A DNA stretch of 64,000 nt from Nitrososphaerota archaeon (GTDB taxonomy: Archaea; Thermoproteota; Nitrososphaeria_A; Caldarchaeales; Caldarchaeaceae), in assembly GCA_041641305.1 (NCBI GenBank), contig JBEPYN010000001.1:416001-480000 (forward strand). The letters run 5' to 3'. The notes below the pieces were generated by a model. That model saw only the letters and a program-made list of their open reading frames with translations. It ran no database searches and was not told the origin of the DNA. Made by a program: the position numbers and the translations under genes. This document shows positions 3,100-19,302 of this stretch, in pieces (the first letter of the stretch is position 1; each line of letters starts with the position of its first letter).

Positions 3100-3510
3100 T
3101 TATGGCACAAACACATGGAAGGAAAAAATTTTGCCTGATGATGTTCTCACCAGAAGCGTGTATTCGCCCGTTGGCCATCCAGATGCTAGGAGAGGGTAGG
3201 AGGCATAGTCTCGGGGGTTTATCTCCAAGCATGGGTTGATGACCACTCCGCTGCCGAGCTGCACAACATGGACCTCCGCGACGCAGACAGGGAGTACGCC
3301 GTTGTTGTAGAATATGATGACACCGCTCCCATGAGCCTCGGCAACCACCAAGCTTTCCCCCGCACGACGAACATCCAAAGCCGCAAACTGGTTCAACACA
3401 CCAAACTGAAAACCAGCAGCCTGCGTAAAAACAACCACAGCCGCCAAAGTAACCCCAAGCACCAGAAGCACACCCACAATATAGCTAAGACCACGCGAAC
3501 CCAAACGCAA
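3100..3510 (-). CDS. Pilin-like protein (class III signal peptide)
   Basis: TTG start at 3510 after GGAG gives MRLGSRG|LSYIVGVLLVLGVTLAAVVV; YNNG motif. Confidence 0.75.
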   Translation of the reverse strand: MRLGSRGLSYIVGVLLVLGVTLAAVVVFTQAAGFQFGVLNQFAALDVRRAGESLVVAEAHGSGVIIFYNNGVLPVCVAEVHVVQLGSGVVINPCLEINPRDYASYPLLASGWPTGEYTLLVRTSSGKIFSFHVFVP

Positions 3511-10004: not shown

Positions 10005-11189
10005 ATGAAGGTGGCGTTAGCTTACAGCGGTGGACTTGACACAACTGTGATGATTAAGTGGATAAGCCAGAGATACAACGCCGAGGTGGTGACAGTTACA
10101 GTCGACGTTGGACAGGATGAGGATTTTTCCGAAATAGAGGAGAAGGCTTACAAAAGCGGCGCCGTCAAGCACTACAGCATAGATGCGAAGAAAAAATTTG
10201 CCGACGAGTTTCTTTCACGGGCGATTAAGGCGAACGCGATGTATGAAAGGAGCTATCCTCTTTCATCTGCTTTGAGCAGGCCTTTGATAGCCGAAGAGAC
10301 TGCGAAGGTTGCTTTGAAGGAGGGATGTGACGCGGTTGCCCATGGATGCACGGGGAAAGGGAACGACCAGCTGCGGTTTGACGCGACCTTCGCAGCCGTT
10401 GCACCGGACCTCAAGATAATCGCTCCTGTAAGAGAGTGGAATATGAGCAGAGATGAGGAGATCGAGTATGCACTGGAGCACAACCTTCCCGTCAACCCTG
10501 TCAAAAGCCGCTTCAGCATAGATGAGAACCTCTGGGGCCGCTCTATAGAGGCCGCTGAACTCGAAGACCCATGGACGGAGCCGCCAACCGAGGCTTTCAA
10601 ACTCGTTAAACCCCTCGACCAAACACCTGACAAGCCCGAGGAATTCACCATAGGCTTCAGAAACGGTGTCCCCGAATACATCAACGGCGACAGAAAAGAT
10701 CTCGTGACACTTGTTAGAATGCTGAATGTGTTGGGAGGGATGCATGGCTACGGGTTGGTCGACCATGTAGAGGACCGCGTCGTTGGCCTAAAGTCCCGAG
10801 AGGTTTACGAGGTCCCCGCGGCCCTCATCCTAATCAACGCGCACATGGATCTTGAGAAGATGTTTCTTGGGAGACGGTTCCAAGCATTCAAGCAGCAGGT
10901 GGATAACCTTTGGGCGGATCTTGTCTACTCGGGTCTATGGATGGACCCGCTGCGAAAGGCTCTTGACGCGTTTATCGACGAGTCGCAGAAGGGGTTGGAT
11001 GGGGAGGTGCGTCTAAGGCTTTACAAAGGCTCGCTGCGGGTAGTTGGTCGGCGTGGAGAGAAGCCGCTCTACTCGCCAAAATACATCACCTATGCTCGTG
11101 AGAGTGTTTTTGACCAGAGGGCTGGTGAAGGCTTTTCAAAGCTGTGGAGCCTCGAGACACGGCTTAGCAGTCTGAGGGAGAAGGAGTAG
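10005..11189 (+). CDS. argG: Argininosuccinate synthase
   Basis: LAYSGGLDT, HGCTGKGNDQ, SIDENLWGRS, KSREVYE. Confidence 0.97.
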   Translation: MKVALAYSGGLDTTVMIKWISQRYNAEVVTVTVDVGQDEDFSEIEEKAYKSGAVKHYSIDAKKKFADEFLSRAIKANAMYERSYPLSSALSRPLIAEETAKVALKEGCDAVAHGCTGKGNDQLRFDATFAAVAPDLKIIAPVREWNMSRDEEIEYALEHNLPVNPVKSRFSIDENLWGRSIEAAELEDPWTEPPTEAFKLVKPLDQTPDKPEEFTIGFRNGVPEYINGDRKDLVTLVRMLNVLGGMHGYGLVDHVEDRVVGLKSREVYEVPAALILINAHMDLEKMFLGRRFQAFKQQVDNLWADLVYSGLWMDPLRKALDAFIDESQKGLDGEVRLRLYKGSLRVVGRRGEKPLYSPKYITYARESVFDQRAGEGFSKLWSLETRLSSLREKE

Positions 11190-11192
11190 CTG

Positions 11193-12626
11193 ATGGATGC
11201 GCCACATAGAGCGGCGTTATCGCGAGGGATGGATGAGGACGCGGCACGCTACACATCATCCGCGGCATTCGACACAGAAATTTACGAGACCACGGTTTAC
11301 GTCAACGCGGCCCACATCAAAATGCTCGAGAAACAAGGCCTCCTAAACAGGGAGTCGGCGGAAAAGGCTCTCACAACCCTGAGACATCTTCTCCAAACTC
11401 GGCAAACACCACCACCCACAGTAGAGGATATCCACATCTATCTCGAGCAACTTCTTTCCGAAAAAGCACCCGAGGCCGCTGAGATGCTCGCTCTCGGCAA
11501 AAGCAGGAATGACGCGGTCGTCGCGGCCGTGAAAATCGAGGTGAGACGTAGAGCATACAAAATCGCTGATATGGCGCTCGATGCTGTTGAATCGCTTGTG
11601 AGGAAAAGCGGCGAGCATGCGGCCACGGTTTTCCCTGTTTACACCCATCTCCAGAGAGCCGCTCCCGCTACGTTCGGGTTTGTTTTACAGTCCTATGCAA
11701 TCCGCCTACTGAGGTGCTGCAACTCACTTCTCACCATGCTTGAGGCATGTGAGGAGTCTCCCCTCGGCTCCGCGGCTGTTGCGGGAACATCCGTGCCCGT
11801 GGACCGCGAATACATAGCTCAGCTCCTCGGGTTTAGGAGAACGAGCTTGAACGCCCTTGAGGCCACGGCTTCCCGCGAATTTCTTACCCTAGTTCTGTCT
11901 CCTCTACATGTCACAGCCTTGGTTCTATCCTCATTCGCTGAGGAGATTGTTCTCTACGCGTCGGAGGAGTTCGGCCTCATCCAGATACCTGAGGAGCTCG
12001 CCGCCACCAGCAGCATCATGCCGCAGAAGAGAAACCCCGTCGTAGCCGAGATAATGAGGACAAAGGCCTCGGAGGTGCTGGGGCTTCTCGCCACGGTTTC
12101 GGGGATTTTGTCGCGGCAGCCGAGCGGCTACAACCTTGACCTACAGCAGGTGACTCCGAAGGTTTGGCAGGCTCTAAGAGAGGTTTCTGAAAGCCTCCAT
12201 ATGATGAGAAAACTCGTGGAGAAAATTGAGGTTAACAGGGAGAAGGCCTGGGAGGCCTGCGCCCCTCCCACGGCCGCAGTCGAGCTCGCAAACCACCTAA
12301 CCCTGAAACATGGAATAGGCTTCAGGAAAGCACATCAGATAGCGGCGAAAATCAGCCGAAGCATCGCCGAACAAAACCTCACACAGGAGAGGCTCGACAC
12401 AATCTTCCAAGAGCATGGGCTAAAACCACTATACGCAATCGGGGAAGTTCTTTCTCTGATGAACCCAGACGCCGCCGTTAAACGCTACACGGCACCTGGC
12501 TCGGCAAACCCAACCATGGTCTCCGAGAACGTTGAAAAGCTCCTCAAAACGGTTGAGGAGATTAGAAACCGTGTAGAAGTGGAGCGGCGTGTTCTCGAAG
12601 ATTGTTTAAAGAGATTGCTGAGCTGA
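11193..12626 (+). CDS. argH: Argininosuccinate lyase
   Basis: KSRND, YTHLQRA, SSIMPQKRNP. Confidence 0.95.
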   Translation: MDAPHRAALSRGMDEDAARYTSSAAFDTEIYETTVYVNAAHIKMLEKQGLLNRESAEKALTTLRHLLQTRQTPPPTVEDIHIYLEQLLSEKAPEAAEMLALGKSRNDAVVAAVKIEVRRRAYKIADMALDAVESLVRKSGEHAATVFPVYTHLQRAAPATFGFVLQSYAIRLLRCCNSLLTMLEACEESPLGSAAVAGTSVPVDREYIAQLLGFRRTSLNALEATASREFLTLVLSPLHVTALVLSSFAEEIVLYASEEFGLIQIPEELAATSSIMPQKRNPVVAEIMRTKASEVLGLLATVSGILSRQPSGYNLDLQQVTPKVWQALREVSESLHMMRKLVEKIEVNREKAWEACAPPTAAVELANHLTLKHGIGFRKAHQIAAKISRSIAEQNLTQERLDTIFQEHGLKPLYAIGEVLSLMNPDAAVKRYTAPGSANPTMVSENVEKLLKTVEEIRNRVEVERRVLEDCLKRLLS

Positions 12627-13688
12627 GTCCATCTCTCTGACGAACTCCACATATATCTGGGCCGCTGTCATGATGTCTTTTATTTCGACTGCTTCGGCGG
12701 ATGTGTGGGCTAGGGTTGAGTCGCCGGGTCCGCATGCAACGATGTTGGGTGTCACGGCTACGAGTGTGTTCATGTCGCTTGTCCCAGTTTTCTTCACGAT
12801 GCGCGGCTTCAGCCCCAGCCTGAGCATAGCCCTCTGAAGCGCTCTCGCAGCAAGGTTGTTCACGTTGGTGACCACGGGCTCTGTCACGTCGATGACCTCT
12901 ATCTGGCAGTCAGCTATCTTCACGAACTCCTCCAGCTTTGACAGTATCTCCTTCGAGCTGTATGGATGGGGGAACCTGATGTTGATGCTTCCCTCGGCTC
13001 TGTCAGGTATTCTGCTCACCCAGTCACCAGCGTGAAGCGTTGTGAGGGCGGAGGTCACCTCCTCATACCTCTTCCCGCCATAGTGTTCTTCTACAAGTTT
13101 CCATAAATGGAGAATTTTCTCGAGAGCCGATTCGGCGATGTAGGGAGCTGAGGCATGGCCTCCACGCGCTTGGGCCCTTATCTTTACGCTCAAGCTTCCT
13201 CTGTATGAGAGGGCGATTCCAGTTGTCCCGGTTGGCTCGCCTATGATTATAGCGTCTGCTTCGAGACCTTCTTCGACAAGCTTCTTAGCACCGTAGCCAT
13301 TGCCCTCCTCATCCACCAGCCCGGCAACTATGAGGCGGATGTTTTTCAGTTTTGATGCGGCTGCGCTTCCTGCGAGAAGCATGGCTGAGAGAGGGCCTTT
13401 GGCGTCAACCGCGCCTCTGCCATAAACCTTGCCCTCGGAAACACGGACACGAAGCTCCCCGGGAACGGTGTCAACGTGGCTCACCAGCATAACCGTCCTC
13501 CCGCCACTTCCCGCGGCCGCGAAATAGTTGCCCACCTCATCCCGCCAAAAATCTCTGTAACCAAGGTCGCTGCAGACCCTGAACCATGTTCGCTCAAGCC
13601 TACGCTCCTCCCCCGGCGGTGTGTAAACTTCGAGAAGCTGGACAAGCGTCGAGACCGCTGTCTCCCTGTGGATTTCCACCGCGTTCAA
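12606..13688 (-). CDS. lysK: [LysW]-lysine/ornithine hydrolase (M20 family)
   Basis: SHVDTVPG, GRGAVDAKG, DEEG, GEPT, GTSDMN, GPGDSTLAHT; lysW cluster context. Confidence 0.9.
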   Translation of the reverse strand: MNAVEIHRETAVSTLVQLLEVYTPPGEERRLERTWFRVCSDLGYRDFWRDEVGNYFAAAGSGGRTVMLVSHVDTVPGELRVRVSEGKVYGRGAVDAKGPLSAMLLAGSAAASKLKNIRLIVAGLVDEEGNGYGAKKLVEEGLEADAIIIGEPTGTTGIALSYRGSLSVKIRAQARGGHASAPYIAESALEKILHLWKLVEEHYGGKRYEEVTSALTTLHAGDWVSRIPDRAEGSINIRFPHPYSSKEILSKLEEFVKIADCQIEVIDVTEPVVTNVNNLAARALQRAMLRLGLKPRIVKKTGTSDMNTLVAVTPNIVACGPGDSTLAHTSAEAVEIKDIMTAAQIYVEFVREMDSAQQSL

Positions 13689-13771
13689 TCCTTTTTCCAG
13701 AAAACTTGGTGAAACAGTTTTGTATTAAGTGTTTACGCAACCCTTTTAACACCAGATACGATTGGATAAGC

Positions 13772-15109
13772 ATGGCGGATCGTGTCAAAACCGTGATCAT
13801 GGGAGCCGCGGGACGTGACAGGGCCCTTCTCTGAAGGCCCCACGATTTCCATAACTTCAACGTCTTCTTCCGAGGTAACGAGCGATATGAGGTTGTGGCG
13901 TTTACGGCAGCTCAGATACCTGGCATAGCTGGACGCGTTTATCCCCCTACACTCTCTGGCCCACTCTACCCCGACGGCATACCCATATATGATGAAGAGA
14001 GGCTTCCAGAAATAGTTGAGAGACATGGCGTCAGACTTGTTGTGTTCTCCTACAGCGACCTTACCCATGTAGAGTTGATGAACAAGGCTTCCAAGGTCCT
14101 TGCGCTGGGTTGCGACTTCATGCTTCTAGGCCCGCGCTCAACAATGCTCAGGTCAAGGAAGAAGGTTGTAGCTGTTACGGCTGTGAAGACCGGTGCTGGG
14201 AAAAGCACAGTATCGCGGCTGCTCGTCAAGCTTCTCAGGGAAAAGGGTGTTAAACCCGTTGTCGTCCGCCACCCCATGCCATATGGCGTTTTAGAGAAGC
14301 AGGTCGTGCAACGTTTCTCCAGCCTAGACGACCTTGAAATTCACAGATGCAGCATCGAGGAGCGGGAGGAGATTGAGCCGCATCTCCGAGAAGGCAACAT
14401 AGTCTACACAGGCGTCGACTATGAGATGGTTCTCAGGGAGGCTGAAAAAGAGGGTGATGTGATTGTCTGGGATGGTGGAAACAACGACCTGCCCTTCTAC
14501 TGGCCAGACCTCCACATAACCGTTGTAGACGCGACACGGCCTGAACTGATAACCAACAGCTACCCAGGAGAGGCCAACATCTACATGGCCGACGTAGTAG
14601 TCTTGCACAAGGTTGACAAAGTTTCGAAGGAGCAGCTCGACAAAGCAGTTGAGATCGTGAGAAGCTTGAACCCTAGGGCGGAGGTCGTATCCACGGCTTC
14701 CAAGATACGTATAGAGGATGATGCATCGCTTAGAGGACGAAGGGTCGTCGTGGTAGAGGATTCGCCGTCGGTCACACACGGTGGGATGAGTGTGGGAGCC
14801 GGCTACATAGCAGCCGTAAACGCGGGCGCATCAATCGTCGACCCACGGCCCTACGCCGTCGGAACCATAGCCAAACTATACCGAGAATATACTCATCTAG
14901 GGCCGGTTGTTCCCGCTCTGGGCTACACCGAGGAGCAGTTAAGAGACCTTGGCGAAACTCTCAGGAGAGTCGAGGCAGAGATGATAGTTTCCGCGAGCCC
15001 CGCCGATTTCACCAAGTTAATAGATTGTGGGAAGCCTCTTGTTAGGGTGTGGTATGATGCTGAGCAGGTTTCGGGCACGCCGTTGTCAACTTTTCTCAGA
15101 AGGCTGTAG
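13772..15109 (+). CDS. Arginine synthetase ArcE / cyclic 2,3-diphosphoglycerate synthetase-like P-loop protein, intron-split: join(13772..13819,13847..15109), 436 aa
   Basis: Spliced N-terminus MADRVKTVIMGAAGRD|FHNFNVFFRGNERYEVVAFTAAQIP; GAGKST P-loop, RHPMPYG, WDGGNNDLPF, VVEDSPSVTHGGM. Confidence 0.85.
13820..13846 (+). other. 27-nt bulge-helix-bulge (archaeal splicing-endonuclease type) intron in a protein-coding gene
   Basis: GGA-CGTG-AC^A-GGGCC(C)TTC-TCT-GAAGGCCC-CACG-AT^T-TCC; 4-bp central helix CGTG/CACG, two 3-nt bulges, in-frame TGA at 13832-13834; removal restores the reading frame and motif. Confidence 0.88.
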
Positions 15110-16267
15110 ACGCTGAAACTCTTCAGCGGTTTTCCTCAAGGTCTCAGCCGCGAAAAGTATGTCTTCTCGGGTTATTAGGTAGGGTGGGAGAAAACGGAGG
15201 ACTGTGAGACCCGCCTTGAACCCTATCAATCCATTTTTCTGAAGCATCTTGATAAACTGGGTGGTTGTCGTCCGCATTTCAAGCCCTATCATCAGCCCCG
15301 TCTGCCTAAGATCCCTGAAAACCCGGCCATAGTCTTGTAGAAGAGGCTTGAACTCTTCTGACAGCATCGCTCCCTTGACCTCGGCTTGCTCAGGGATGTT
15401 TTCCTCGAGGAGAACATGTGTCGCCGCGGTTATGGCCGCGAGCGCGAGAGGGTTGCCGCCGTAGGTTGAGCCATGGTCCGTGTCCTTCACCCTCGAGGCC
15501 GCCTCCTCAGTAACAGCTATCAGGCTCGCGGGGAAGCCCCCGGCAACCGCTTTCGCAGCCGTCAACATATCCGGCTTAATCCCACCCCTCTCATGGGCCC
15601 ATACAACCCCAGTTCTTCCAAACCCAGACTGAACCTCGTCAACAATAACATACACACCCAGCTCCCTCGCCTTCTTCTCAACAGCCCTCATAAACTCTGG
15701 CTTCGCCGGGATGATGCCACCTTCGCCTTGCACAGGCTCAAAAATCACCGCCGCAAACTCCTCGCTCAGCTTCTCCTCAACAGCTCCCGCGTCGTTGAAT
15801 GGTGCGAAAACCACTTCAAACGGAAACGGGTCAAAACCTTCTCGGTACTTCGGGTTCCAAGTCGCCGAGAGAGCGGCCATGGTTCTGCCGTGGAAACCGT
15901 TGTTGAAGGCAAGCACTTTTCTTCTGCCCGTCAGCTTGCGGCTCAGCTTGAGAGCCATCTCCACCGCTTCGGAGCCGCTGTTTAGAAAAAACACACGTGT
16001 CAGGTGGGGTGGAAGGATTTTTCCAAGCGCGTCAAGACATTCATCTAGCACGTCGGTGTCGAAGGCTGGGGTTATCGTCATGTAGCGGCTGAGCTGCTCC
16101 TCCAAAGCCTTCACCACACGTGGATGACGGTGTCCGAGAAAAGCCGCACCATATCCCATGTAAAAATCGAGATATCTTCTGCCTCCGCTGTCCCACACAT
16201 ACTGCCCCTCAGCACGTGCCACACGCAGTCCACGGGGGGCGGCGAACCTAAGCAGAGAAACAGTCAC
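15086..16267 (-). CDS. lysJ: [LysW]-aminoadipate semialdehyde/glutamate semialdehyde transaminase (class III PLP)
   Basis: NSGSEAVE, FHGRT, EPVQGEGG, DEVQSGFGRTG, HGSTYGGNPLA. Confidence 0.9.
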   Translation of the reverse strand: MTVSLLRFAAPRGLRVARAEGQYVWDSGGRRYLDFYMGYGAAFLGHRHPRVVKALEEQLSRYMTITPAFDTDVLDECLDALGKILPPHLTRVFFLNSGSEAVEMALKLSRKLTGRRKVLAFNNGFHGRTMAALSATWNPKYREGFDPFPFEVVFAPFNDAGAVEEKLSEEFAAVIFEPVQGEGGIIPAKPEFMRAVEKKARELGVYVIVDEVQSGFGRTGVVWAHERGGIKPDMLTAAKAVAGGFPASLIAVTEEAASRVKDTDHGSTYGGNPLALAAITAATHVLLEENIPEQAEVKGAMLSEEFKPLLQDYGRVFRDLRQTGLMIGLEMRTTTTQFIKMLQKNGLIGFKAGLTVLRFLPPYLITREDILFAAETLRKTAEEFQRLQPSEKS

Positions 16268-17109
16268 CGCTTCAACACCTCAACACTCTTCTCGACTATC
16301 TTTGTCGGCAAATCATAGCCTGTGACAAGTACAGTGTTCCTGAACTCGACCACGCCGTTCACCTCGTTGACAAGCATACCTTTCTCCCGTGACTCGAGAA
16401 CATCTACTCCGAGGACTCCTCCGCCGACTGCGTCACCTGCCTTGATGACGAGGTCTGCGAGCTCGTCGGTCACGGGACATGGCTGAGCTTTTCCGCCGAG
16501 GGCTGTGTTTGTTTTCCAGTTTTTGCTCACCCTGTAAATTGCGACGGGGACTTCACCCCATACGTAGAAGGCTCGGATATCTCTCTCGGGCTTGTCGACA
16601 TGCTCCTGTATGTAGTGTATCTTCATCTGCGGATTTGGCATGTTCTCCCTCAGCTCGAGTATGTCGAGAAGCGACTGCTCATCGAAGGCTCTCGCGATGT
16701 TTCTTCCCCAGCTTCCCGAAATAGGTTTAACAACTACTGGAAACCCTATCTTCCTCGCGGCCTTCAACGCTGTTTCCCTGTTTAAGGCAATCGCTGTCAC
16801 GGGGGTGGGGACGTTTTTTCGGGCCAGCAGACATGATGTAAGAAGTTTGTCGGCTGAGTTGCGGAGCACTTGGGTGTTGTTCACGACTATGTAGCCGCTT
16901 CTCTCAAATATGGCGGTGGTGGCGGCGGCCCTGTTGTAGCTGACACAGCGTTGGATGATGAAGTCGGCGTCGAGGCCATTTCCCTCGTTTATCCAGAATT
17001 CTCTCGCGACAACATGTATGGGAAGAGGTTTGTGCCCGAGATTGTTTATAGACTGGAGTAGAGCCTTCTCCTCAAACCGCACAACGTCGTAGGAGAGGCC
17101 GATGTTCAT
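16264..17109 (-). CDS. lysX: LysW-aminoadipate/glutamate ligase (RimK ATP-grasp, LysX/ArgX)
   Basis: VVKPISGSWG, YIQEHV, RDIR, WKTNTALGG, VNEVN. Confidence 0.92.
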   Translation of the reverse strand: MNIGLSYDVVRFEEKALLQSINNLGHKPLPIHVVAREFWINEGNGLDADFIIQRCVSYNRAAATTAIFERSGYIVVNNTQVLRNSADKLLTSCLLARKNVPTPVTAIALNRETALKAARKIGFPVVVKPISGSWGRNIARAFDEQSLLDILELRENMPNPQMKIHYIQEHVDKPERDIRAFYVWGEVPVAIYRVSKNWKTNTALGGKAQPCPVTDELADLVIKAGDAVGGGVLGVDVLESREKGMLVNEVNGVVEFRNTVLVTGYDLPTKIVEKSVEVLKR

Positions 17110-17112
17110 CCG

Positions 17113-17295
17113 CTACTGGCCCCAGTCTTCCGCAACCTCTTCAGCAACTTTGAGTGAAGCTGTGTTCTTTTCATCCATGAAGTATTCCAGCTGGGCGCCG
17201 CAGTCCCCGCACTCAAACAACTCGCCGGGCAACGCGTCGTTCGGCACCTCCACGGACGCTCCGCAGACCGGACAGTTCAAAGAGGGCATACTCAT
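17113..17295 (-). CDS. lysW: Amino-group carrier protein LysW (C-terminus EDWGQ)
   Basis: CPVCG...CGDCG zinc finger, acidic, ends EEVAEDWGQ. Confidence 0.92.
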   Translation of the reverse strand: MSMPSLNCPVCGASVEVPNDALPGELFECGDCGAQLEYFMDEKNTASLKVAEEVAEDWGQ

Positions 17296-17409
17296 TACCT
17301 CGCGGGACGTAATCGTAACGCCCTTATTTAAATCGTTATAGTTGTGGTGGAAATTTGTCGTGGGTCGGATGGTTTTTTCCGATTATCGTAATTGTCTAAA
17401 CATCCTTCG

Positions 17410-18216
17410 TCAACCGACGATAACCGTCCCGCCGCCTAAATCAGCCGCTTCAACAGGGTCGGCGACAAGCCCAGTGCATATGTGCGCCCTCTTTACACCT
17501 GATTGCACAGCCCTGGCGGCCATCATCACTTTGCGGTTCATGCCCGGCCCTATTTTGTCCAGTATCTCAAGCGCCTGTGCAGCGGTTAGACTCTTAACCA
17601 GCTCACCGTCAAGCAGCAACCCATCAACATCAGTGAGGAGATACAGCTTGTCTGCGTGTATGCTGCTTGCTATGGCGGCTGCGGCCGAGTCGCCGTCTAC
17701 GTTGAGTAATTCGCCTTCCTCCCCTATTGCGAGTGGTGAGACAACGAGCACAACCCCGAGCTCGAGTAGACGTTTTATGAATTGTGCGTCGACCTCTGTG
17801 ATTGTTCCCGTGTATCCGCCGTCGACCACACGTTTGCGTCCTCTTTCGTCGACTATCACGATTTTCTTCTTTCTCTGGGCTTTGATGATCGAAGCATCTA
17901 CTCCCGAGAGGTTTACAGCTTTAACGCCCAGCTTGTTGAGGTAGGCGGCAATCTCCTTGCCGAGTTTTCCGGCCATAACCATGGTGTAAACCTCTATCTC
18001 AGCGGAGTCGGTGAGCCTGCTTCTCACACCCGAGGGTGAGACAACTATCTTCGGCTCAACACCCAGCCGACGCTCAAACTCCGAAACAATATCTCCCCCA
18101 CCGTGGACGAAAACCACTCCATCCGAGGAATGCCGCGCGACTGACTGGAGTATGTTTTGTCTGTTCGACGCGAGAGCTCTACCACCTGCCTTGACAACTA
18201 TCACGGAATAGCTCAT
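17410..18216 (-). CDS. lysZ: [LysW]-aminoadipate/glutamate kinase
   Basis: VVKAGG, VHGGG, SPSGVRSRLTD, GGYTG, LLNVDGD. Confidence 0.92.
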   Translation of the reverse strand: MSYSVIVVKAGGRALASNRQNILQSVARHSSDGVVFVHGGGDIVSEFERRLGVEPKIVVSPSGVRSRLTDSAEIEVYTMVMAGKLGKEIAAYLNKLGVKAVNLSGVDASIIKAQRKKKIVIVDERGRKRVVDGGYTGTITEVDAQFIKRLLELGVVLVVSPLAIGEEGELLNVDGDSAAAAIASSIHADKLYLLTDVDGLLLDGELVKSLTAAQALEILDKIGPGMNRKVMMAARAVQSGVKRAHICTGLVADPVEAADLGGGTVIVG

Positions 18217-18234
18217 CCCGATGTGGATTTAAGG

Positions 18235-19302
18235 TTAGGCTGGGCGCAGAGGAGGATAGTTGAGACCGTCTCTTTCATCGAAGCCGTGCATGATGTTGAA
18301 ACACTGAACCGCCTGCCCAGCCGCACCCTTCATCAGGTTATCAATCGCCGCGAAAAGAGCCGCGCGTCCTATCCTTTTCTCCACGGCGAAACCCACGTCA
18401 GCAAAATTGCTGCCCACAACATATTTTGGGTCAGGATACCTGAAAGGCGCCCCATGAACTATCCTTATGAAGGGCTCCTTGGCGTAGCGGCTTGCATACA
18501 CTTTCCAGACATTGTTTTCATCAGTTTCCTCGTTTAGAAACCATACATGAGCTGTTGCAAGTGCTCCGCGTACTGCTCCGACGGCGTGCGGAACCAGTGC
18601 TACCTTTACCGGCTTTTTCGCAAGCAGAGAGAGCTCCTGCTCAACCTCGGCAACATGCCTATGCCCCTCCGCCTCATACGGCCTCATCACGTTAGCTCTC
18701 TCCGGATGATGGGTGCCCAGCGAAGGCTTTATCCCAGCCTCACTGCTCCCAACCTTGACGTCAACAACAATCCTCTCCAAATCAATCAACCCCTGCTCTA
18801 CGGCGGGAACAAGAGCTATCAACGCTGCAGTAGAGTTGCAGCCGGGACAAGCGACGAGCGACGCTGTTTTGATAAATTCTCTGTATATTTCGGGCAAACC
18901 ATAAACCGCTTTGTCCAAGAGCTCGGGCCTCGGATGCTTCGTCTCATACCACTTCTCGTAGTCAGCGGGCTTTCTTAAGCGGAAGTCGGCGCTGAGGTCG
19001 AGGACTCGGAGGCCTCTGTCAAGGAACTGCGGTGTCAATGTGGAGGATACGCCGTGTGGTGTGTTGACGAAGACTGTGTCACATTTCTCGACAAGTGCTT
19101 CGACATTTACTTCGGAGAACTTGAGACCTTTGTAGAAGCCGCGGAGATGAGGATGGATTGCTGTAAAGGGCTTGCCAGCATATTCCCGTGATGTTACATA
19201 GGTTACTTCAACGTTTGGATGGACCGCGAGAATTCTTAGAAGCTCTCCTCCTGTGTATCCGGAGCCGCCGACTAAACCTACACGGACAACCATTCCAGCC
19301 AC
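18235..19302 (-). CDS. lysY: [LysW]-aminoadipyl/glutamyl-phosphate reductase (ArgC family)
   Basis: GGSGYTGGEL, DLSADFRL, ACPGC, DNLMKGAAGQAVQ. Confidence 0.93.
   Translation of the reverse strand: MAGMVVRVGLVGGSGYTGGELLRILAVHPNVEVTYVTSREYAGKPFTAIHPHLRGFYKGLKFSEVNVEALVEKCDTVFVNTPHGVSSTLTPQFLDRGLRVLDLSADFRLRKPADYEKWYETKHPRPELLDKAVYGLPEIYREFIKTASLVACPGCNSTAALIALVPAVEQGLIDLERIVVDVKVGSSEAGIKPSLGTHHPERANVMRPYEAEGHRHVAEVEQELSLLAKKPVKVALVPHAVGAVRGALATAHVWFLNEETDENNVWKVYASRYAKEPFIRIVHGAPFRYPDPKYVVGSNFADVGFAVEKRIGRAALFAAIDNLMKGAAGQAVQCFNIMHGFDERDGLNYPPLRPA

What the first reader, a model, noticed from the sequence alone, without database searches (positions are those of the whole stretch)
13811..13850. 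tRNA-type bulge-helix-bulge intron inside a metabolic protein-coding gene
Seen in sequence: the ORF starting at ATG 13772 reads MADRVKTVIMGAAGRD-RALL*RPHD-FHNFNVFF, so 27 extra nt with an in-frame TGA split the family motif GAAGRDFHNFN. The junction folds as a canonical hBHBh': exon helix GGA(13811-13)/TCC(13848-50), central 4-bp helix CGTG(13814-17)/CACG(13841-44), 3-nt bulges ACA(13818-20) and ATT(13845-47), and intron stem GGGCC..TTC/GAAGGCCC. Cutting after the 2nd nt of each bulge (AC^A, AT^T) removes exactly 13820-13846 and gives GGA CGT GAC TTC CAT = G-R-D-F-H and a 436-aa protein. Established: EndA cleaves BHB motifs at these positions and RtcB ligates the exons; the documented archaeal mRNA example is crenarchaeal cbf5. 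Inference: this is a second class of archaeal mRNA intron, and expression of an amino-acid metabolism enzyme depends on the tRNA-splicing machinery. I know of no report for this gene family but cannot search.
Basis: partly seen in the sequence, partly recalled or inferred. Interest (0 to 1): 0.95.

Follow-up and report, generated by a model that had tools for sequence, protein, structure and literature searches.

The report
tRNA-type intron inside arginine synthetase gene
A 27-base insert shaped like the introns archaea cut out of tRNAs interrupts the arginine synthetase (arcE) gene of this hot-spring archaeon and 13 relatives, so its mRNA almost certainly has to be cut and rejoined before the enzyme can be made; the papers I could search report that for only one other archaeal protein gene (cbf5).

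Summary
Window 13820-13846 is a 27-nt insert with an in-frame TGA. It splits the family motif GAAGRD|FHNFN of an ArcE (TK2200-like arginine synthetase) gene in a Ca. Caldarchaeum genome, and it folds as a strict hBHBh' motif.

- All 12 sampled Caldarchaeum genomes and 2 genomes of a sister genus carry an insert at the same codon boundary. Lengths are 23-30 nt, and 7 of 14 shift the frame. All 14 have a stop in the exon-1 frame.
- All 14 keep a perfect 3-bp/4-bp/3-nt-bulge geometry with compensatory changes.
- The canonical cut after the second bulge nucleotide restores GRD|FH in every copy.
- Exons are under purifying selection (dN/dS 0.08-0.2).
- 16 intronless relatives in the order, and 75 more distant homologues whose sequence reaches the site, have the motif contiguous.
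- The genome encodes two EndA subunits and RtcB. Its cbf5 carries the classic mRNA intron at the catalytic Asp codon.

No read or contig spans the junction, so splicing itself is inferred. Public annotations, including C. subterraneum BAJ51159.1, call a truncated 403-aa protein.

This is a new member of a known kind: a new host gene and lineage for BHB mRNA introns. Notes from this scan, mostly unchecked, report similar introns in other genes on other DNA.

The parts
13743..13749 (+). TATA-like AT-rich box (CTTTTAA) about 26 nt upstream of the exon-1 ATG; a probable promoter of a leaderless or near-leaderless arcE transcript
   Evidence: a T/A-rich box (TTTTTAC / TTTTAA / TTTAAA) is conserved at fixed spacing from the start codon in all 12 Caldarchaeum copies. 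The promoter role is inferred from the usual archaeal TATA position; it was not tested.
13772..13819 (+). arcE exon 1: 16 codons, MADRVKTVIMGAAGRD
   Evidence: an intact start codon and frame in 14 of 14 intron-containing copies, with synonymous differences. It ends in the family motif GAAGRD.
13820..13846 (+). 27-nt BHB intron (cut-to-cut), excised after the second nucleotide of each bulge
   Evidence: It contains the in-frame TGA at 13832-13834. Homologous inserts of 23, 24, 25, 26, 27 and 30 nt lie at the same site in 13 other genomes.
13811..13813 (+). outer exon helix h, 5' strand (GGA, the Gly codon); pairs with 13848-13850
   Evidence: paired 3 of 3 in all 14 copies. The Gly codon is GGA in 14 of 14 intron-bearing genes but in only 6 of 16 intronless relatives.
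13814..13817 (+). central 4-bp helix H, 5' strand (CGUG); pairs with 13841-13844
   Evidence: 100% of cells paired. U-A changes to C-G on both sides in 3 genomes, and there is one G-U.
13818..13820 (+). 5' bulge ACA; cleavage between 13819 and 13820
   Evidence: a 3-nt bulge in 14 of 14 copies. The cleavage rule 'between the second and third bulge residues' is from PMC2738675. It was checked on this genome's own tRNA-Trp and tRNA-Ser introns.
13821..13840 (+). intron stem-loop h' (GGGCC-C-UUC / UCU loop / GAAGGCCC)
   Evidence: 5-8 bp in every copy, starting directly after the bulge and ending directly before H. Four of the six aligned pairs show changes on both sides.
13832..13834 (+). in-frame TGA that ends translation of unspliced RNA after 20 residues
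   Evidence: all 14 introns carry a stop in the exon-1 frame within 0-4 codons.
13841..13844 (+). central helix H, 3' strand (CACG)
13845..13847 (+). 3' bulge AUU; cleavage between 13846 and 13847
   Evidence: The last bulge nucleotide U is the first base of the Phe codon in all 14 copies.
13848..13850 (+). outer exon helix h, 3' strand (UCC, spanning the Phe and His codons)
13847..15109 (+). arcE exon 2: 420 codons plus stop, FHNFNVFF...
   Evidence: It is 52-53% identical to Thermococcus homologues and 89% identical to the G009 copy. There is no start codon between the intron's stop and FHNFN. dN/dS is 0.08-0.2.

Best explanation
Window 13820-13846 is a genuine archaeal bulge-helix-bulge (tRNA-type) intron inside the coding sequence of arcE, the TK2200-type arginine synthetase (arginine + ADP + Pi <-> citrulline + NH3 + ATP), in a Ca. 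Caldarchaeum (Aigarchaeota / Caldarchaeales) genome.

Proposed mechanism:
1. The gene is transcribed from a TATA-like box about 26 nt upstream of ATG 13772.
2. Nucleotides 40-79 of the pre-mRNA fold into a strict hBHBh' motif.
3. The two-subunit splicing endonuclease, (alpha-beta)2 EndA, cuts after 13819 and after 13846.
4. RtcB joins the exons and probably circularises the 27-nt intron.
5. The spliced mRNA encodes a 436-aa enzyme with the contiguous motif GAAGRDFHNFN. Unspliced RNA would yield only a 20-residue peptide.

Shown here: the structure; its conservation and covariation in 14 genomes; the frame logic; selection on both exons; the presence of the enzymes; and a cbf5 mRNA intron in the same genome.

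Inferred: the cleavage and ligation themselves, the promoter, and the enzyme activity.

The intron was most simply gained once, in the common ancestor of Caldarchaeum and a sister genus. No function of the intron itself is indicated.
For: 1. Anatomy. The canonical cut gives GAC|UUC.

2. Comparison.
- All 12 Caldarchaeum copies and both copies of genus g3 carry an insert at the same codon boundary.
- Lengths are 23 (x5), 24 (x2), 25, 26, 27 (x2) and 30 (x3) nt.
- Every copy has h 3/3, H 4/4, two 3-nt bulges and h' of 5-8 bp.

3. Covariation (alignment A1).
- 98.2% of cells are paired, against 30-59% when the partner is slid.
- 5 pairs and 15 cells change on both sides.
- 0 of 500 shuffles reach the observed covariation score.
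- The central helix changes from CGUG/CACG to CGCG/CGCG in three genomes.

4. Need for splicing.
- 7 of 14 inserts shift the frame.
- 14 of 14 carry a stop in the exon-1 frame.
- 11 of 14 have no start codon that could begin translation at FHNFN.
- Only the cut after the second bulge nucleotide restores Asp-Phe in all copies. A cut one base earlier would give Glu in the copies whose 3' bulge is AAU or AGU.

5. The gene is alive. dN/dS is 0.08-0.21, with synonymous sites at or near saturation between most species. Exon 1 keeps its start codon and the sequence M..R[VI][KR][TV][VL][IV][ML]GAAGRD, with synonymous changes.

6. Intronless state elsewhere. The motif is contiguous in the 16 other relatives of the order that have the gene and in 75 of 75 more distant homologues whose sequence reaches the site.

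7. Machinery. The genome has two EndA catalytic-fold genes and RtcB. The C. subterraneum genome paper reports a heterotetrameric EndA, 13 intron-containing tRNAs and no selenocysteine system (PMC3082918).

8. [quoted passage not shown] This is the site published for crenarchaeal cbf5 (PMC2738675).

9. Chance. A strict BHB at one fixed site and length has a probability of about 2e-5.

10. Not an assembly artefact. The insert is present in 14 separate genome assemblies; three are MAGs from differently named samples.
Against: - There is no RNA evidence. In the one metatranscriptome that holds the gene (X1), contigs cover 13588-13756 and 13954 onward but not the junction. Two raw-read runs gave no reads at the 3% sampled.
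- No spliced-form or intronless protein fragment of at least 90% identity exists in the 5.8-billion protein collection.
- The generic folding energy is unremarkable (z = -1.09).
- In 3 of 14 genomes a start codon in or just upstream of the insert (TTG in two; GTG or ATG in the third) could in principle start a protein at about FHNFN. Gene callers have used such a start.
- Identity with TK2200 rests on family-level similarity and the paper's description, not on a direct alignment to TK2200.
Confidence: 0.88

Rival explanations
1. The protein is made without splicing, from an internal start: GTG 13895 here, or TTG inside the insert in some relatives. That would give an N-terminally truncated 404-430-aa enzyme, as all public annotations assume. 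The hairpin would then be a 5' regulatory structure or an insertion relic, and exon 1 a leftover.
For: Public gene calls are 403-430 aa. Three of 14 copies have an in-frame start codon in or just upstream of the insert.
Against: - Exon 1 keeps its start codon, its frame and the GAAGRD motif in 14 of 14 copies across saturated synonymous divergence.
- The 16 codons FHNFNVFFR...YEV between the insert and GTG 13895 are conserved as protein, yet in 11 of 14 genomes no start codon can reach them.
- The motif is contiguous in every intronless homologue examined.
- A plain hairpin does not need exact 3-nt bulges and a 4-bp helix in 14 of 14 copies.
Confidence: 0.05
2. Translational recoding: ribosomes bypass (hop over) the 23-30 nt hairpin, as in phage T4 gene 60, or read through the stop.
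For: A stable hairpin with a stop codon lies shortly after the take-off codon. In this genome the last three intron bases are GAU, an Asp codon like the take-off GAC.
Against: - In 10 of 14 copies the would-be landing codon is GAA or GAG, which does not match tRNA-Asp.
- Read-through cannot rescue the 7 frame-shifting inserts.
- Bypassing does not require BHB geometry.
- I know of no report of bypassing in archaea (own knowledge).
Confidence: 0.03
3. A decaying gene: the insert is a disabling insertion and arcE is a pseudogene in this lineage.
For: There is an in-frame stop or a frameshift in every copy.
Against: - dN/dS is 0.08-0.21 over the whole spliced CDS.
- There are no other stops in 13 complete copies.
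- The insert is retained with compensatory changes.
- arcE is the only arginine-to-citrulline enzyme found: there is no ADI hit, but carbamate kinase and OTC are present.
Confidence: 0.02
4. Assembly or sequencing artefact.
For: None beyond the short size of the insert.
Against: Homologous inserts occur at the same site in 14 separate genome assemblies, three of them MAGs from differently named samples, and in the gene's many public gene calls, all of them N-terminally truncated.
Confidence: 0.01

Closest known systems
BHB intron in the cbf5 (pseudouridine synthase) pre-mRNA of Crenarchaeota (Watanabe 2002; Yoshinari 2006; Yokobori 2009, PMC2738675)
   Same: A short BHB intron inside a protein-coding sequence. 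It splits a conserved functional motif and is cut between the second and third bulge residues. It occurs in a lineage with hetero-oligomeric EndA, has a patchy (gain/loss) distribution, and varies in length, including in-frame and frame-shifting versions.
   Different: The host gene is a metabolic enzyme (arcE), not an RNA-modification enzyme. The lineage is Caldarchaeales, not Desulfurococcales or Sulfolobales. The arcE motif is a strict hBHBh', whereas many cbf5 introns, including this genome's own 14-nt one, are relaxed. cbf5 splicing has cDNA and in vitro proof; this intron has none.
BHB intron in the 5' UTR of Haloferax volcanii HVO_1309 mRNA (Schwarz et al. 2020, PMC7714728)
   Same: An mRNA substrate of the tRNA splicing endonuclease. 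The 2020 paper states that cbf5 was the only other mRNA case then reported.
   Different: That intron lies in the untranslated leader and does not interrupt the reading frame. It is a euryarchaeal case with a different type of endonuclease (own knowledge).
tRNA introns of Ca. Caldiarchaeum subterraneum (Nunoura 2011, PMC3082918; Sugahara 2012, PMC3293823)
   Same: The same organism group and the same enzymes. The BHB geometry is the same as in this genome's tRNA-Trp and tRNA-Ser introns.
   Different: The substrate is an mRNA. The arcE BHB is more canonical (4/4 central pairs) than the two tRNA introns inspected (3/4). No sequence-similar copy exists elsewhere in the genome.
HAC1 / XBP1 unconventional mRNA splicing in eukaryotes (IRE1 cut, tRNA ligase or RtcB joining; own knowledge, and PMC4090602)
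   Same: Spliceosome-independent excision of a short mRNA intron defined by RNA structure, with RtcB-type ligation in metazoa. Splicing is required to make the functional protein.
   Different: A different endonuclease (IRE1) and a regulated stress switch. No evidence here of regulation.

Membership tests
Archaeal BHB (EndA-type) intron | Two 3-nt bulges on opposite strands separated by a 4-bp helix | tested here: met
   met in 14 of 14 copies. The central helix is 100% paired.
Archaeal BHB (EndA-type) intron | Flanking helices h (exon-exon) and h' (intron), i.e. the strict hBHBh' form | tested here: met
   h is 3 bp and h' is 5-8 bp in all copies. h is short and fixed by coding sequence, so it never varies.
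Archaeal BHB (EndA-type) intron | Cutting between the second and third bulge residues gives the functional product | tested here: met
   The rule is from PMC2738675 and was checked on this genome's own tRNA introns. It restores GRD|FH in 14 of 14 copies.
Archaeal BHB (EndA-type) intron | Helices maintained by compensatory substitutions among relatives | tested here: met
   5 pairs with changes on both sides, and 0 of 500 shuffles reach the score. The sequences are related, so shuffles overstate significance, but the slide controls (30-59% paired) also fail.
Archaeal BHB (EndA-type) intron | Splicing endonuclease and RtcB ligase encoded in the genome | tested here: met
   two PF01974 genes (97 and 53 bits) and one RtcB gene. 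RtcB carries an intein.
Archaeal BHB (EndA-type) intron | Spliced RNA, a circular intron, or in vitro cleavage observed | tested here: inconclusive
   no contig or read covers 13757-13953; no spliced-form protein fragment in public collections.
ArcE arginine synthetase (TK2200 family; PMC11032458) | Full-length sequence similarity to Thermococcales ArcE homologues, and only remote similarity to cyclic 2,3-diphosphoglycerate synthetase | tested here: met
   52-53% identity over 417-418 residues to Thermococcus proteins; cDPG synthetase structures match only residues 198-314 (E = 3e-14 to 7e-5). TK2200 itself was not aligned directly.
ArcE arginine synthetase (TK2200 family; PMC11032458) | Genomic pattern: carbamate kinase and OTC present, arginine deiminase absent | tested here: met
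   arcC and argF score over their cut-offs; no ADI match in a genome 99.3% complete.
ArcE arginine synthetase (TK2200 family; PMC11032458) | Catalyses arginine + ADP + Pi <-> citrulline + NH3 + ATP | not testable with these tools
   Needs an enzyme assay of the 436-aa product.
cbf5-type mRNA intron | Located in cbf5 at the catalytic Asp codon | tested here: not met
   The host gene is arcE. The genome's real cbf5 intron lies elsewhere (G000:C1:76821-76834).

The most novel reading that the evidence does not exclude
arcE is not an isolated case. In Caldarchaeales, EndA/RtcB splicing of protein-coding mRNAs would be a regular part of gene expression, with at least five protein genes per genome needing it: cbf5 almost order-wide, arcE in two genera, and an XPD-like helicase plus further genes on an accessory element. 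BHB introns would then be able to invade and persist in ordinary metabolic genes, so archaeal gene catalogues systematically mis-call such genes as truncated or broken.
Probability: 0.45. Interest if true: 0.75.

Novelty: new member of a known kind. Interest (0 to 1): 0.6.

Why it matters
In the papers I could search, cbf5 is the only archaeal protein-coding sequence reported to be interrupted by a tRNA-type intron (stated as late as 2020, PMC7714728).

A second, well-supported host gene would show three things. It encodes a central-metabolism enzyme (ArcE, itself described only in 2024), and it lies in a different lineage.
- The tRNA-splicing machinery has mRNA clients beyond RNA-modification genes.
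- Such introns can persist for long evolutionary times under selection for RNA shape.
- Automatic annotation silently truncates these genes. The C. subterraneum reference protein BAJ51159.1 lacks 32 N-terminal residues, including a family motif that is contiguous in every intronless homologue examined.

It also provides a clean, strict-BHB natural substrate, with 14 natural variants, for testing mRNA splicing by (alpha-beta)2 EndA.

Tried and rejected
- **RNA reads.** One metatranscriptome (X1) holds parts of the gene as contigs, but none crosses 13757-13953. X2 covers only 14208-14365. Raw-read runs X3 and X4 gave no reads at 3% sampling. No verdict on splicing or expression.
- **Search for a spliced or intronless form.** I used a 60-residue junction-spanning peptide against 5.8 billion proteins, for lengths of 33-105 aa and over 105 aa. 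The best identity was 82-86%, from other lineages. Nothing was found.
- **Generic fold energy.** z = -1.09, not informative.
- **Genome-wide strict-BHB scan.** There were 9,691 hits against about 6,700 in shuffles. An ORF-joining filter left 1,486 candidates, dominated by chance motifs at boundaries of adjacent genes. I could not count mRNA introns genome-wide without a homology check.
- **carB intron lead from an earlier scan note.** No CPS large subunit was found in this genome, so the lead does not apply here.
- **Paralogues of the intron.** None, so there is no sign of a repeated mobile sequence.
- **Recoding, pseudogene, truncated-start and artefact readings.** Considered and rejected; see the rival explanations.
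- **Gain versus loss of the intron.** The gene tree allows a single change, but the g1/g3/g8 node is unresolved (SH-aLRT 89, drawn open). A single gain is the simplest reading, not a demonstrated one.
Full report
**1. What is in the sequence**

The frame opening at ATG 13772 reads MADRVKTVIMGAAGRD, then RALL, a TGA (13832-13834), RPHD, and then FHNFNVFF... to the stop at 15109. Removing 13820-13846 (27 nt) joins GAC to TTC and gives a 436-aa product.

- h: GGA 13811-13 with UCC 13848-50.
- H: CGUG 13814-17 with CACG 13841-44.
- Bulges: ACA 13818-20 and AUU 13845-47.
- h': an intron stem GGGCC(C)UUC / GAAGGCCC around a UCU loop.

The unconstrained MFE fold recovers this, apart from an equivalent 2-nt register of the 3' bulge. 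The fold energy as such is not unusual (z = -1.09).

**2. Organism and gene**

The window lies in a 1.66-Mb genome that is 99.3% complete. Its congeners carry NCBI titles 'Candidatus Caldarchaeum sp.'. A member of the protein cluster that holds the nearest relatives' 403-aa gene calls (88% identical to the query) is the C. subterraneum reference protein BAJ51159.1.

The protein belongs to the family once called 'predicted GTPase' or 'cyclic 2,3-diphosphoglycerate synthase-like'. It is 52-53% identical over its full length to Thermococcus homologues. This is the family whose T. kodakarensis member TK2200 (ArcE) was shown in 2024 to be arginine synthetase (PMC11032458).

The gene sits in the middle of a LysW-type Arg/Lys cluster:
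- argG 10005-11189
- argH 11193-12626
- an M20 deacylase, 12606-13688 (minus strand)
- a class-III aminotransferase, 15086-16267 (minus strand)
- a LysX-like ATP-grasp protein, 16264-17109 (minus strand)
- a kinase, 17410-18216 (minus strand)
- a semialdehyde dehydrogenase, 18235-19302 (minus strand)

The genome has carbamate kinase and OTC. No arginine deiminase and no CPS large subunit were found. This is the ArcC-plus / ArcA-minus pattern by which ArcE was discovered.

**3. Comparative test**

I searched 60 relatives of the order with exon 2 and read the DNA upstream of FHNFN.

Every one of the 12 Caldarchaeum copies, and both copies of a second genus of the family (g3), carries an insert at exactly the same codon boundary. 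The 16 copies from other genera (g2, g8, g10, g13) read MGAAGRDFHNFN without interruption. Among 80 more distant loci from bacteria and archaea, 75 of the 75 whose sequence reaches the site are contiguous. The only interrupted ones are Caldarchaeum contigs already counted.

Insert lengths are 23 (five copies), 24 (two), 25, 26, 27 (two) and 30 (three) nt. In all 14 copies:
- the outer helix is paired 3 of 3;
- the central helix is paired 4 of 4;
- both bulges are exactly 3 nt;
- an inner stem of 5-8 bp starts directly after the 5' bulge and ends directly before the 3' strand of H.

On the MAFFT alignment A1:
- 98.2% of cells are paired, against 30-59% when partners are slid by 1-3 columns.
- Five pairs and 15 cells show changes on both sides.
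- The central helix switches from CGUG/CACG to CGCG/CGCG in three genomes.
- None of 500 shuffles reaches the observed covariation score.

The sequences are related, so the shuffle count is not a probability. The slide controls, and the fact that the 5' partner of the switched pair is a synonymous third codon position, make the point independently.

**4. Splicing is needed, and only the canonical cut works**

- Seven of the 14 inserts are not multiples of three.
- All 14 place a stop in the exon-1 frame within 0-4 codons.
- In 11 of 14 there is no ATG, GTG or TTG between the last stop and FHNFN in the exon-2 frame.

The 16 residues after the insert are nevertheless conserved as protein.

Cutting between the second and third bulge residues is the published rule (PMC2738675). 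It reproduces the 37/38 junctions of this genome's tRNA-Trp and tRNA-Ser(CGA) introns. Applied here, it yields GAY|UUC (Asp-Phe) in all 14 copies. Shifting both cuts by one base would give Glu-Phe in most.

The spliced CDSs show dN/dS of 0.08-0.21, with synonymous sites at or near saturation between most species pairs. Exon 1 keeps its start codon and sequence with synonymous variation. A T/A-rich box lies at fixed spacing, about 26-31 nt upstream of the exon-1 start, in all Caldarchaeum copies. This fits a leaderless transcript that begins with exon 1; that reading is an inference.

The exon codons that form the helices are fixed in intron-bearing genes but vary in intronless relatives:

| Codon | Intron-bearing | Intronless |
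|---|---|---|
| Gly GGA | 14 of 14 | 6 of 16 |
| Arg CGY | 14 of 14 | 2 of 16 |

These counts are descriptive, because the genomes are kin.

**5. Chance and artefact**

A strict hBHBh' motif (h at least 3, H 4, h' at least 4, length 12-110) occurs 9,691 times in the genome and about 6,700 times in block-shuffled copies. The motif alone therefore means little. At the one position and length fixed by the protein alignment, the chance is about 2e-5, before counting the 13 other genomes. The insert is present in separate genome assemblies, three of them MAGs from differently named samples, so it is not an assembly error. It has no paralogue in the genome.

**6. Machinery and an internal positive control**

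The genome encodes two proteins with the EndA catalytic fold (open frames of 182 and 185 aa; 97 and 53 bits). This fits the heterotetrameric enzyme reported for C. subterraneum, which also has 13 intron-containing tRNAs and no selenocysteine system (PMC3082918). It also encodes one RtcB, interrupted by an intein.

Its cbf5 gene is split into two frames at profile position 70. A 14-nt mini-intron at G000:C1:76821-76834 accounts for this:
- a 7-bp exon helix;
- a central helix CCCU/GGGG;
- bulges AGA and AAA.

[quoted passage not shown] That is exactly the site published for crenarchaeal cbf5 introns. The same split is seen in 35 of the 40 genomes of the order searched; one more has an in-frame stop at the site. 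This lineage therefore must already splice at least one mRNA by this route.

**7. What could not be shown**

Searches of the protein collection with a junction-spanning peptide found no spliced or intronless Caldarchaeum form. Cleavage, ligation, circular intron and enzyme activity are therefore inferred.

**8. Rivals**

- Truncated protein from an internal start. This is what all public annotations assume (403-430 aa). It does not explain the conserved exon 1, the conserved residues that no start codon can reach, or the exact BHB geometry.
- Ribosomal bypassing or read-through. This fails on mismatched landing codons (GAA or GAG in 10 of 14) and on the frame-shifting inserts.
- Pseudogene. 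Excluded by the selection analysis.

**9. History**

On the ArcE tree, a single change of state suffices. Caldarchaeum is monophyletic (SH-aLRT 100). Its grouping with g3 and the intronless g8 is unresolved. The simplest reading is one gain in an ancestor of g1 and g3, but loss in other genera is not excluded.

**10. Novelty**

Papers up to 2020 state that cbf5 is the only reported mRNA with a BHB intron in its coding region, plus a Haloferax 5'-UTR case (PMC7714728). The 2009 cbf5 paper notes that other protein-gene introns had only been predicted. I found no paper mentioning an intron in arcE or in any Caldarchaeum protein gene.

Notes from this scan, mostly unchecked, report BHB introns in other protein genes on other DNA (EF-2, PFK, hypD, acs, carB) and in an accessory element of this same genome. 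I confirmed one of the latter in part: an XPD-like helicase whose Walker A reads GPTGLGK|T across a 61-nt strict BHB, with DEAD_2 and Helicase_C_2 domains in the downstream part.

I therefore class the arcE intron as a new member of a known kind: well supported by comparison and awaiting RNA proof.

Noticed in passing
G000:C1:76821-76834 (outside the window; locus L126): [quoted passage not shown] The same two-frame split at profile position ~70 appears in 35 of 40 Caldarchaeales genomes searched. One more has an in-frame TAG there, and three genomes of genus g10 are contiguous. The 2009 survey listed this intron only for Desulfurococcales and Sulfolobales.
   Followed up: partly
G000:C2:457459-457519 (L125:7960-8020): An XPD-like helicase is split inside its Walker A motif (GPTGLGK|TAPV) by a frame-shifting 61-nt strict BHB (exon helix 7 bp). 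The downstream 522-aa part has DEAD_2 (from profile position 25) and Helicase_C_2. This is a probable further mRNA intron, on what an earlier scan note calls an accessory element.
   Followed up: partly
L125, about 3360-3458 (G000:C2, about 452859-452957): In a gene that an earlier scan note calls a HerA/VirB4-like ATPase (I did not check the family), a 99-nt in-frame stretch with a TAG separates ...VIDWK from GEYVNF....
   Followed up: no
G000:C1:535991-538729 (L113, L114): The only RtcB ligase gene is one 975-aa frame in which a 460-aa intein (Intein_splicing domain plus a weak LAGLIDADG-like match) separates RtcB profile positions 1-50 and 46-426. The RNA ligase needed for RNA splicing therefore itself needs protein splicing.
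   Followed up: partly
whole genome G000; window 10005-19302 for the cluster: arcE sits inside a LysW-type Arg/Lys biosynthesis cluster next to argG-argH. The genome has carbamate kinase (C2:696971-697900) and OTC (C2:582137-583042). No arginine deiminase and no carbamoyl-phosphate synthetase large subunit were found (TIGR01369, PF02787). ArcE with OTC and carbamate kinase may therefore matter for carbamoyl-phosphate or arginine balance, as proposed for Thermococcus (PMC13260591, abstract only).
   Followed up: partly
window 13895-15109, and public records: All public gene calls for this gene in Caldarchaeum are N-terminally truncated or start inside the intron (403-430 aa). One example is C. 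subterraneum BAJ51159.1, 'conserved hypothetical protein', 403 aa. The annotation misses exon 1 and the first 16 codons of exon 2.
   Followed up: yes
whole genome G000: Strict hBHBh' motifs are about 1.45 times more frequent in the real genome (9,691) than in block-shuffled sequence (about 6,700). I could not tell whether this reflects many real EndA substrates or just GC-rich local structure.
   Followed up: no
window 12606-12626: The 3' ends of argH (plus strand) and the M20 deacylase gene (minus strand) overlap convergently by 21 nt.
   Followed up: no
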